In this document: positions 36,611 to 36,830 of the stretch, piece by piece
How positions within the stretch are numbered: the first letter of the stretch is position 1
Layout of the letters: each line of letters starts with the position of its first letter
NCBI GenBank assembly: GCA_022710975.1
Contig: JAKLGA010000009.1
Location: 181,547 to 245,546, forward strand
Direction: 5' to 3'
DNA: 64,000 bases
DNA from: Myxococcota bacterium
GTDB taxonomy: Bacteria > Myxococcota > B64-G9
The notes under the pieces: model-generated
Told to the model about the DNA's origin: nothing
What the model saw: the letters and a program-made list of their open reading frames with translations, nothing else
The model's database searches: none
Program-made: the position numbers and the translations under genes

Positions 36611-36830
36611 ACGAGGAAAGGAGAGAAGTTCTTTAAGGGTGAGGCAGGAAGGAAAGGAGTTCTTTGAGGGTAGGACAGGAGGGCAGGAAGGCTTGGGCAG
36701 CGCGGGAGGGCAGGGCTGGAGGGGCTTCGCGGCGAGCAGCGCTCACAGCACTCGCACAGCCTGCTGGCCCGGATCCTAACCCTCTAAGAATCCTATTTCC
36801 CTTCAAGAATCCTTTTCCTGTTCCTTCCCC
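36611..36830. promoter_or_regulatory. Low-GC divergent promoter region containing repeated TTCTTnAAGGG / CCCTTCAAGAA motifs
   Basis: GAAAGGAG...GTTCTTTAAGGGTGAGGCAGGA and GAAAGGAGTTCTTTGAGGGTAGGACAGGA form a tandem imperfect repeat. TAAGAATCCTATTTCCCTTCAAGAATCC lies in the opposite orientation at 36785-36812. A near-identical motif, GAAGAAATCCTTTCCTTCAAGGAG, recurs at 50971-50994. Confidence 0.4.

What the first reader, a model, noticed from the sequence alone, without database searches (positions are those of the whole stretch)
36611..36830. Repeated TTCTT(T/G)AAGGG-type motif in a low-GC divergent promoter region, recurring 14 kb away
The speA / 35696..36571 divergent region is strikingly AT-richer than its surroundings. 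It contains two tandem copies of GAAAGGAG..GTTCTTT(A/G)AGGGT(A/G)AGG.CAGGA. In the opposite orientation it also has TAAGAATCCTATTTCCCTTCAAGAATCC. A closely related element (GAAGAAATCCTTTCCTTCAAGGAGTTGGGTTCC; core TCCTTCAAGGA is a near-palindrome) sits at 50971-51003, upstream of the YdcF-family gene. The same about 20-nt motif in several copies, and in two unrelated promoters, looks like binding sites for one transcription factor, or a regulon, rather than chance.
Basis: seen in the sequence. Interest (0 to 1): 0.5.

Follow-up and report, generated by a model that had tools for sequence, protein, structure and literature searches.

The report
Dispersed composite repeat, not operator sites
The repeated motif is real, but it is the building block of a roughly 220-base repeat that this uncultured Myxococcota bacterium carries in at least two places (one of them translated inside a gene), so it looks like a lineage-specific interspersed repeat rather than a set of binding sites for one regulator.

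Summary
The core CCCTYNAAGAA occurs 5 times in 64 kb against 0.05 expected. All copies lie in the speA/ExbD-like divergent region and upstream of the DUF218 (YdcF-family) gene.

The motif copies are units of a larger composite element, window 36611-36828: two clear 31-nt units, two decayed units, a spacer, then two inverted units 19 nt apart. This stretch is missing from the same intergenic region of the closest relative (SpeA 90% identical), although the speA promoter there is conserved.

The element aligns colinearly (78% identity over 206 positions, z about 30) with a segment on another contig from the same metagenome sample. There it lies in frame inside a lysophospholipid acyltransferase gene and encodes a low-complexity linker. 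Its unit periods are 45/42/45 nt and its GC3 is 0.56, against 0.98 for the rest of the gene. The 50966-51003 copy is a solo two-unit arm, about 50 nt upstream of a conserved sigma-54-type promoter.

No copies were found in 185,579 reference genomes, viral contigs, or about 43 kb of the relative.

Best reading: a lineage-specific interspersed repeat containing a minisatellite (like MITEs, RPEs or BrickBuilt), spread by copying plus tandem duplication. The transcription-factor regulon reading is disfavoured but not excluded for the DUF218 copy. The result is ordinary to modestly interesting.

The parts
36611..36828 (.). Whole composite repeat element in the ExbD-like/speA divergent intergenic region
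   Evidence: Colinear with L106 1995-1735 (- strand): 206 aligned pairs, 78% identity, score 37.5 against 0.6 +/- 1.2 in composition-preserving shuffles. The window's intergenic region is 397 bp; the relative's (L003/L004/L005) is 174 bp and has no unit copies.
36618..36648 (-). Unit L1. On the pyrimidine strand it reads CCTGCCTCACCCTTAAAGAACTTCTCTCCTT.
   Evidence: Direct repeat family D1. Core match. nhmmer E=2.6e-4. Aligns to L106 unit 4 at 87.5% over 32 nt.
36649..36679 (-). Unit L2 (CCTGTCCTACCCTCAAAGAACTCCTTTCCTT), 31 nt from L1
   Evidence: Aligns to L106 unit 3.
36680..36740 (-). Two decayed, GC-enriched units, previously read as the G-rich centre
   Evidence: Blocks 36688-36738 align to L106 units 2 and 1 at 1892-1825. 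Contains a G4-type motif at 36695-36724, but such motifs are common here, 21 per 64 kb.
36741..36778 (.). Spacer between the two arms
   Evidence: Aligns to L106 1824-1776.
36779..36798 (+). Unit R1 (ACCCTCTAAGAATCCTATTT)
36798..36826 (+). Unit R2 (TCCCTTCAAGAATCCTTTTCCTGTTCC), 19 nt from R1
   Evidence: Aligns to the L106 minus-strand unit at 1767-1741, ungapped block of 27 nt; BLAST reports 85% identity over the overlapping 27 nt at L106 1766-1740.
36829..36849 (+). Perfect 8-bp hairpin, CAAGCCCC-AAC-GGGGCTTG, immediately right of the element
   Evidence: Predicted in the RNA fold. No counterpart was seen in the L003 intergenic sequence. Role unknown.
36896..36924 (+). Sigma-70-like promoter of speA (TTGACG-17-TATCCT). 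Context only, not part of the repeat.
   Evidence: Promoter scan. The block GTTTCGATTGAC is conserved in L003/L005.
50966..50988 (+). Unit X1 (ACCCTCGAAGAAATCCTTTCCTT), a solo right-arm copy upstream of the DUF218 gene
   Evidence: Core match. nhmmer E=3.3e-5. 22/24 identical to L2. Right-arm alignment A5.
50989..51003 (+). Degenerate second unit X2 (CAAGGAGTTGGGTTC), with the near-palindrome TCCTTCAAGGA across the X1/X2 junction
   Evidence: The part CTTCRAGGRGTTGG is retained in the L003 orthologous region.
51049..51064 (+). Sigma-54-type promoter AGGCACGGAGCTTGCT upstream of the DUF218 gene. Context only.
   Evidence: One mismatch to TGGCACGNNNNTTGCW. Conserved as AGGCACGGACCTTGCT in L003.
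35696..36571 (-). ExbD-like gene (291 aa), left neighbour
   Evidence: PF02472, 4e-6. Gene call.
36969..38882 (+). speA, biosynthetic arginine decarboxylase, right neighbour
51091..52023 (+). DUF218/YdcF-family gene downstream of the solo copy
   Evidence: PF02698, 1.3e-29.

Best explanation
The motif copies are the repeat units of a lineage-specific, non-coding-type composite repeat of about 220-260 bp.

**Architecture.** The element has an array of GA-rich units (31-45 nt, read on one strand), a short spacer, and a two-unit arm in inverse orientation with units 19 nt apart.

**Copies found.** The element has been copied to at least two places in this uncultured Myxococcota genome:
- between the ExbD-like gene and speA (window 36611-36828);
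- in frame inside the linker-coding part of a lysophospholipid acyltransferase gene on another contig, where it is translated.
- A solo two-unit arm sits upstream of the DUF218 gene.

**Origin of the multiplicity.** The repeated motif comes from tandem duplication of units (replication slippage) plus copy-and-paste dispersal of the whole element. The dispersal could be MITE/RPE-like non-autonomous mobility or illegitimate recombination. It does not come from selection for a shared operator.

**Effect on neighbouring genes.** Any effect is a by-product. At speA the element pushes about 220 bp of AT-richer, strand-skewed DNA between the conserved speA promoter and the divergent gene.

**Shown versus inferred.** Shown: the homology between copies, the presence/absence difference against the relative, and the in-frame coding copy. 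Inferred: the mechanism of dispersal and the lack of a dedicated function.
For: - **Whole-element homology.** Window 36611-36828 aligns with L106 1995-1735 at 78% identity over 206 pairs in 19 colinear blocks. The score is 37.5 against 0.6 +/- 1.2 in segment-wise shuffles. L106 comes from the same metagenome sample as the window contig and has the same 72% GC.
- **Presence/absence at speA.** The intergenic region is 397 bp here and 174 bp in three independent assemblies of the closest relative, while the proximal speA promoter block is conserved. Two samples of the focal organism both carry the element.
- **Translated copy in L106.** The element lies between the conserved N-terminal SVLGRDPFSRP and DRQELL motifs of the acyltransferase ORF 762..2144. 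Unit periods there are 45/42/45 nt. GC3 is 0.56 inside the element, against 0.88 and 0.98 in the flanking parts.
- **Absence from the relative's gene.** The relative's acyltransferase linker (L210) is unrelated, z=1.1.
- **Non-coding copy in the window.** It has periods of 31 and 19 nt and stop codons in every frame.
- **Narrow distribution.** There are no unit hits in about 43 kb of the relative or in the rest of the window. The tandem-junction pattern has 0 hits in 185,579 species genomes. The single-unit pattern gives 74 singletons in unrelated taxa, about the random expectation by my estimate.
- **Precedents.** Minisatellite-bearing MITEs (BrickBuilt, PMC4596501) and in-frame RPE insertions (review PMC10969869).
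Against: - Only three loci are known, two full and one partial, so the word 'family' rests on few copies.
- No target-site duplication and no sharply defined terminal inverted repeats were found.
- No transposase lies in the 64-kb window.
- The copies are only about 78% identical with many indels, so there is no sign of recent transposition.
- That L106 belongs to the same genome is likely (same sample, same GC, both among the longest contigs) but unproven.
- The direction of copying is unknown.
- The insertion-versus-deletion polarity at speA could not be set with an outgroup, because the more distant relatives have a different upstream gene.
- The solo copy sits where sigma-54 activators usually bind and is partly conserved in the relative. 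This would fit a regulatory site.
Confidence: 0.55

Rival explanations
1. **Cis-regulatory sites.** The units are direct-repeat binding sites of one DNA-binding protein. For the DUF218 gene this could be the enhancer (UAS) of a sigma-54 activator. speA, the ExbD-like gene and the DUF218 gene would then form a regulon.
For: - All five core matches in the window are intergenic.
- The right arm lies about 70-115 nt upstream of the speA -35 hexamer.
- The solo copy lies about 50-85 nt upstream of a conserved sigma-54-type promoter, the usual place for activator sites.
- The stretch CTTCRAGGRGTTGG of the solo copy is retained in a relative whose proteins are only 53-90% identical.
- The two-unit arm with 19-20 nt spacing recurs at all three loci.
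Against: - The speA copy is absent in the relative, although the speA promoter is conserved there.
- The hallmark ACCCT...AAGAA of the solo copy is not conserved in the relative; there is an 11-nt gap.
- Similarity between loci covers more than 200 nt, including spacers and decayed units, which selection on a 20-nt site does not explain.
- One full copy is inside a translated ORF.
- Spacings of 19, 31, 42 and 45 nt are not helically consistent.
- No regulator gene was found among the flanking genes scanned.
- No sigma-54 promoter lies near the speA copy or the L106 copy.
Confidence: 0.2
2. **One-off segmental copy, not a repeat family.** A piece of the acyltransferase linker-coding region (or the reverse) was duplicated once by illegitimate recombination. 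The short DUF218-upstream match would be an independent or convergent low-complexity sequence.
For: - Only two full copies are known, and they are colinear over their whole length.
- The acyltransferase linker is naturally repeat-prone in homologues: AQAKT repeats in P0138 and KDG repeats in L210.
- No transposase, target-site duplication or further copies were found.
Against: - The solo copy matches 22/24 nt and repeats the two-unit arm architecture, which is very unlikely by chance in a 72% GC sequence.
- Homology does not extend into the conserved coding parts of the acyltransferase.
- The element has atypical GC3 within that gene (0.56), so it does not look like native coding sequence.
- The relative's linker lacks it.
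Confidence: 0.15
3. **RNA-level function.** The outward-reading strands give CU-rich RNA that acts as an anti-Shine-Dalgarno leader for the ExbD-like gene, or as a small RNA.
For: In the predicted fold of the ExbD-like leader, the inter-unit CUUUCCUUCCUGC pairs with the ribosome-binding site GCAGGAGGAAG. The fold has z=-1.6, and 11 of 200 shuffles fold as well. A perfect 8-bp hairpin follows the right arm.
Against: - The fold statistics are weak: z=-0.8 for the whole element and +0.46 for the right arm.
- The right arm and the solo copy lie upstream of the predicted promoters, so they are probably not transcribed with the genes.
- There is no Rfam match.
- The hairpin lacks a U-run.
- One copy is coding sequence.
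Confidence: 0.05
4. **Chance.** The resemblance arises from low-complexity, purine-rich intergenic DNA.
For: Intergenic regions here are generally lower in GC. GA/CT-rich tracts align easily.
Against: The core occurs 5 times against 0.05 expected, with 0 of 100 shuffles reaching 5. The colinear alignment has z about 30 against shuffles that keep local composition.
Confidence: 0.02

Closest known systems
BrickBuilt, the minisatellite-containing MITE of Porphyromonas gingivalis (PMC4596501)
   Same: Both are small, species-restricted elements made of a variable number of imperfect tandem units (BrickBuilt: 23 nt, 1-22.8 copies) with flanking parts in inverted orientation. Both are dispersed at several loci, sit next to promoters, and lack a transposase inside. 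Target-site duplications are inconsistent or missing in BrickBuilt too.
   Different: Units here are 19-45 nt with variable period. There is no defined leader/tail with terminal inverted repeats matching a known IS. BrickBuilt is always intergenic, whereas one copy here is translated. Only 3 loci are known here, against 19 for BrickBuilt.
Rickettsia palindromic elements (RPEs), as reviewed in PMC10969869
   Same: Both are short repeats found in intergenic DNA and also inserted in frame in unrelated metabolic genes, where they add a peptide segment without destroying the protein.
   Different: RPEs are about 150 bp and, as their name indicates, palindromic; they were reported 44 times within genes of one genome. 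Here only one in-frame copy is known, the whole-element hairpin is no more stable than shuffles, and the lineage (Myxococcota) is unrelated.
Classical bacterial MITEs (ERIC, Correia/NEMIS, RUP)
   Same: The size (50-500 bp), AT-richness relative to the genome, inverted-repeat geometry, mainly intergenic location and presence/absence between relatives all match.
   Different: There are no sharp terminal inverted repeats, no target-site duplication, no cognate IS, low identity between copies, and an internal minisatellite structure.
BOX elements of Streptococcus pneumoniae and MIRU of mycobacteria (from my own knowledge of Martin et al. 1992 and Supply et al. 1997; not checked here)
   Same: These are modular dispersed repeats in which an internal unit (boxB, 45 nt; MIRU, 40-100 nt) varies in tandem copy number between loci.
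   Different: The sequences and host lineages are different. BOX has fixed A and C end modules. MIRUs lie between genes of operons in one orientation.
Upstream activator sequences of sigma-54 enhancer-binding proteins, and direct-repeat operators of response regulators
   Same: Both show two or more similar sites in tandem roughly 70-150 nt upstream of a promoter. The solo copy has this position relative to a conserved GGCACG-N4-TTGC promoter.
   Different: Known activator sites are usually dyad-symmetric and conserved with their promoters. Here the sites are directional, poorly conserved in the relative, absent from the orthologous speA promoter, and part of a 220-nt duplicated segment.

Membership tests
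MITE | Small size (50-500 bp) and no transposase inside | tested here: met
   218 bp in the window and about 261 bp in L106. The window copy has stop codons in all six frames.
MITE | Terminal inverted repeats | tested here: inconclusive
   Inverted arms of 12-21 nt are 76-92% complementary. They are repeated subterminal units rather than sharp termini, and the two ends differ in unit number and period.
MITE | Target-site duplication flanking the element | tested here: not met
   Comparing the filled site (window) with the empty site (L003) shows no direct repeat at the inferred borders...CACGAGG| and |TCCCCCC.... The borders are uncertain because the intergenic DNA is about 75% diverged.
MITE | Multiple copies per genome with presence/absence polymorphism | tested here: inconclusive
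   Three loci were found in about 77 kb attributed to this organism. The element is absent at both orthologous full-copy loci of the relative. The complete genome is not available, and collection scans found no other copies.
MITE | A cognate autonomous IS/transposase with matching ends | not testable with these tools
   Pfam scans of 12 flanking proteins found no transposase, and the window was not annotated in full. The genome is not in the reference collection.
RPE-like in-frame repeat | Insertion within ORFs that keeps the reading frame and is translated | tested here: met
   In L106 ORF 762..2144 the conserved N-terminal and DRQELL motifs flank the element in one frame. Unit periods are 45/42/45 nt. 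Only one such case is known.
RPE-like in-frame repeat | Palindromic sequence that can form a stable hairpin | tested here: not met
   The whole-element fold is -98.3 kcal/mol against -94.1 +/- 5.1 in shuffles, z=-0.82.
BrickBuilt-type minisatellite MITE | Array of imperfect tandem units without spacers, with copy number varying between loci | tested here: met
   The window has two clear units plus two decayed units. L106 has four units, with 82% identity between two-unit blocks.
BrickBuilt-type minisatellite MITE | Always intergenic | tested here: not met
   The L106 copy is inside a coding region.
Transcription-factor regulon / operator array | Motif enriched upstream of genes | tested here: inconclusive
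   Five of five core matches in the window are intergenic, but they represent two loci only. The other full copy is intragenic.
Transcription-factor regulon / operator array | Sites conserved at orthologous promoters | tested here: not met
   The sites are absent upstream of speA in L003/L004/L005, while the promoter is conserved. At the DUF218 gene only the 3' part is retained, and the ACCCT..AAGAA core is lost.
Transcription-factor regulon / operator array | Similarity confined to the binding motif | tested here: not met
   Colinear homology spans about 210-260 nt, including spacer and decayed units.
Transcription-factor regulon / operator array | A protein that binds the sites, and co-regulation of the target genes | not testable with these tools
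   This needs pull-down, EMSA, DAP-seq or expression data.
Known RNA family (Rfam) | Match to a covariance model at gathering score | tested here: not met
   Only sub-threshold microRNA-model hits, 17-20 bits against gathering scores of 70-85.

The most novel reading that the evidence does not exclude
The element is a mobile repeat that carries the binding sites of a regulator. One candidate is the enhancer-binding activator of the sigma-54 promoter upstream of the DUF218 gene. By copying itself next to speA and into other loci, the element would rewire that regulator's regulon in this lineage. In-frame copies would at the same time create new disordered protein linkers.
Probability: 0.1. Interest if true: 0.6.

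Novelty: new member of a known kind. Interest (0 to 1): 0.3.

Why it matters
If correct, this adds an uncultured, high-GC Myxococcota lineage to the bacteria that carry species-restricted, minisatellite-type interspersed repeats. It also gives a second kind of example, after the rickettsial RPEs, of such a repeat being tolerated in frame inside an enzyme, here as a disordered linker.

There are three practical consequences:
- It warns against reading recurrent intergenic motifs in single contigs as regulons.
- Such repeats could plausibly break metagenome assemblies. One public contig ends inside the acyltransferase gene, roughly 300 nt before the element would begin, but that contig has low coverage and no causal link was tested.
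- It offers a variable-number marker for tracking strains of this digester organism.

The result does not open a long-standing question.

Tried and rejected
- **Metagenome pattern scan.** Only L106 was informative.
- **Reference-genome scans.** The tandem-junction pattern gave 0 hits. The single-unit pattern gave 74 singletons in unrelated taxa, which by my estimate is about the random expectation. The organism is evidently not in that collection.
- **Viral contigs.** Six random singletons.
- **Protein-level searches with the translated element.** These returned nothing, or one spurious repetitive protein.
- **Rfam.** Only sub-threshold microRNA models, reflecting the inverted repeat.
- **Whole-element RNA hairpin.** Not significant.
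- **Conserved G-quadruplex centre.** Rejected: such motifs occur 21 times per 64 kb, and the 'centre' turned out to be decayed units.
- **Sigma-54 promoters.** None near the speA or L106 copies.
- **Same-strand alignment of the two elements.** Significant (z about 11) but superseded by the opposite-strand alignment (z about 30).
- **Ancestry in the acyltransferase gene.** The relative's linker shows no significant similarity.
- **Extending the contig to the left.** The look-up failed because the guessed start codon was wrong. The 9 kb gained on the right holds no copy.
- **attP-like site, iterons, centromere, IHF site.** Considered from memory and dropped for lack of any supporting feature: no integrase, replication or partition genes were noticed nearby, and this appears to be a chromosomal context.

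Full report
**Source and setting.** The window is 71.7% GC. It matches contigs of 215-319 kb from two JGI metagenome samples. The nearest named relatives of its proteins are uncultured 'Deltaproteobacteria' or Myxococcota genomes assembled from metagenomes. The finding lies between an ExbD-like gene (35696-36571, minus strand; PF02472) and speA (36969-38882). The distant copy lies upstream of a DUF218/YdcF-family gene (51091-52023).

**Checking the observation.** The described sequences are present. On the pyrimidine-rich strand the unit reads ACCCTYNAAGAA(N0-1)TCCT(N0-2)TTCC.
- Two units lie on the minus strand at 36618-36648 and 36649-36679, with period 31 and 81% identity.
- Two units lie on the plus strand, with cores at 36780 and 36799 and period 19.
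- The arms are 76-92% complementary.
- A fifth good unit is at 50966-50988, followed by a degenerate one.

The core CCCTYNAAGAA occurs 5 times against 0.05 expected, and no shuffle reached 5. A profile built from the units finds nothing else in the window. The low GC of the region is ordinary: about ten other stretches of the window, several of them apparently between genes, dip below 0.58. The unusual feature is the switch from purine-rich to pyrimidine-rich DNA.

**Comparison with relatives.** The closest relative found has SpeA 90% identical. Its other proteins are 53-79% identical, so it is a different species or genus. In three independent assemblies of that relative, the ExbD-like/speA intergenic region is 174 bp instead of 397 bp. 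The proximal block GTTTCGATTGAC, with a sigma-70-like promoter (TTGACG-17-TATCCT at 36896-36924), is conserved. The roughly 220 bp holding all four units is missing. Both samples of the focal organism carry it.

Upstream of the DUF218 gene the relative keeps a canonical sigma-54-type promoter (AGGCACGGAGCTTGCT at 51049-51064). It also keeps the 3' part of the solo copy (CTTCRAGGRGTTGG). The ACCCT..AAGAA core is lost, together with an 11-nt gap.

**A second full copy.** A pattern scan of metagenome contigs mostly returned random single hits. One hit, L106, comes from another 286-kb contig of the same sample as the window contig and has the same GC. It carries one unit on the minus strand and four tandem units on the plus strand, with periods of 45, 42 and 45 nt.

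The window element (36611-36828, plus strand) aligns colinearly with L106 1995-1735 (minus strand). There are 206 aligned positions, 78% identity and 19 blocks. The score is 37.5 against 0.6 +/- 1.2 for shuffles that keep local composition. This alignment shows three things:
- The G-rich 'centre' of the window element is two decayed, GC-enriched units plus a spacer.
- The right arm (two units 19 nt apart) is a conserved module.
- The DUF218-upstream copy is a solo version of that arm.

**The second copy is translated.** In L106 the element lies inside ORF 762..2144 of a lysophospholipid acyltransferase (PF01553). The N-terminal MSSSVLGRDPFSRP and the DRQELL motif on either side of the element are conserved in homologues. 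The frame therefore runs through the element, which encodes SSRVGQE..EEGK repeats followed by PFKNPLPGPVPGP. GC3 is 0.56 within the element, against 0.88 and 0.98 in the flanking parts of the gene. This argues against native coding sequence. The relative's orthologue has an unrelated linker.

The window copy read in the matching frame gives SSLRVGQEG...PFKNPFPVPSP. It has stop codons in all frames and unit periods that are not multiples of three.

**Distribution.** The tandem-junction pattern has no match in 185,579 species-representative genomes. The single-unit pattern gives 74 singletons in unrelated taxa, about what chance predicts by my estimate. Viral contigs give 6 singletons. Protein-level searches with the translated element found nothing real. 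The family appears confined to this lineage, whose genome is not in the reference set.

**Interpretation.** The most economical reading is a lineage-specific composite interspersed repeat with an internal minisatellite. It would be multiplied locally by slippage and dispersed by an unknown copy-and-paste route. Precedents are the BrickBuilt minisatellite MITE of Porphyromonas gingivalis (PMC4596501) and in-frame RPE insertions in Rickettsia (reviewed in PMC10969869).

Membership in the MITE class is not established. Size, AT-richness and inverted geometry fit. No target-site duplication, sharp termini or cognate transposase were found. The copies are old, at 78% identity.

The regulon idea is disfavoured by four observations: lack of conservation at speA, homology extending far beyond a site, the intragenic copy, and irregular spacing. 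For the solo copy a role as an activator site of the conserved sigma-54 promoter cannot be excluded. RNA-level roles have only weak support.

**Limits.**
- Only about 77 kb of this organism could be examined.
- Assigning L106 to the same genome is an inference.
- The polarity (insertion or deletion) and the direction of copying are unknown.
- No expression or binding data exist.

Noticed in passing
window 30923-33190 (-), and neighbour 33220-35646 (-): A 755-aa protein has a Major Vault Protein shoulder domain (PF11978, 1e-30) and a vault repeat (PF17795). That is a bacterial MVP homologue. The adjacent 808-aa protein has no Pfam match and is encoded in DNA of only 0.60-0.65 GC in a 0.72 GC genome. 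At the syntenic place the relative L003 has poly-gamma-glutamate (Cap) genes instead.
   Followed up: partly
window 51049-51064 (+): A canonical sigma-54-type promoter, AGGCACGGAGCTTGCT, lies 27 nt upstream of the DUF218/YdcF-family gene start. It is conserved in the relative as AGGCACGGACCTTGCT.
   Followed up: partly
L106 762-2144 (-); homologues P0123-P0138; L210 9623-10795: This lysophospholipid acyltransferase subfamily has a conserved N-terminal SVLGRDPFSRP motif. It is followed by a hypervariable, repeat-rich basic linker of roughly 55-140 aa (AQAKT repeats in P0138, KDG repeats in L210) before DRQELL. The automatic gene call in L210 starts after the linker and truncates the protein.
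   Followed up: partly
window 42829-47589 (-) and 52039-61794 (-): These are giant secreted-type proteins. One is 1586 aa with Dicty_CTDC cysteine-rich repeats. The other is an ORF of about 3250 aa (gene call in L202: 2753 aa) with fervidolysin-like propeptide, S8 peptidase and Dicty_CTDC domains.
   Followed up: no
window 36829-36849 (+): A perfect 8-bp GC-rich hairpin, CAAGCCCC-AAC-GGGGCTTG, lies directly right of the repeat element. It is followed by a CT-rich tract and has no evident counterpart in the relative. It is not a canonical terminator because it lacks a U-run.
   Followed up: partly
L023, L052, L064, L065, L068, L074 (sediment and other metagenome contigs, GC 0.41-0.52): These unrelated low-GC contigs share a longer conserved block around the pattern hit: GGGG..gaagCCCCTTTAAGAAATCCTCTTCCCTCTCCCCTT..AAGGGGAGAGGGATAAA, with two hairpins. 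It looks like a different repeat family or a structured RNA in another lineage.
   Followed up: no
window 36508-36527: An exact tandem 10-mer, GGCCGGCCAG x2 (also palindromic), lies within the signal-peptide-coding start of the ExbD-like gene.
   Followed up: no
L211 (ENA ERZ795055 contig, 2408 bp): A public contig, whose acyltransferase fragment a source names as from a Myxococcota MAG, ends inside the acyltransferase gene at YWRVEV, roughly 300 nt before the repeat would begin. Coverage is low (about 3x), so whether the repeat caused the assembly break is unknown.
   Followed up: no
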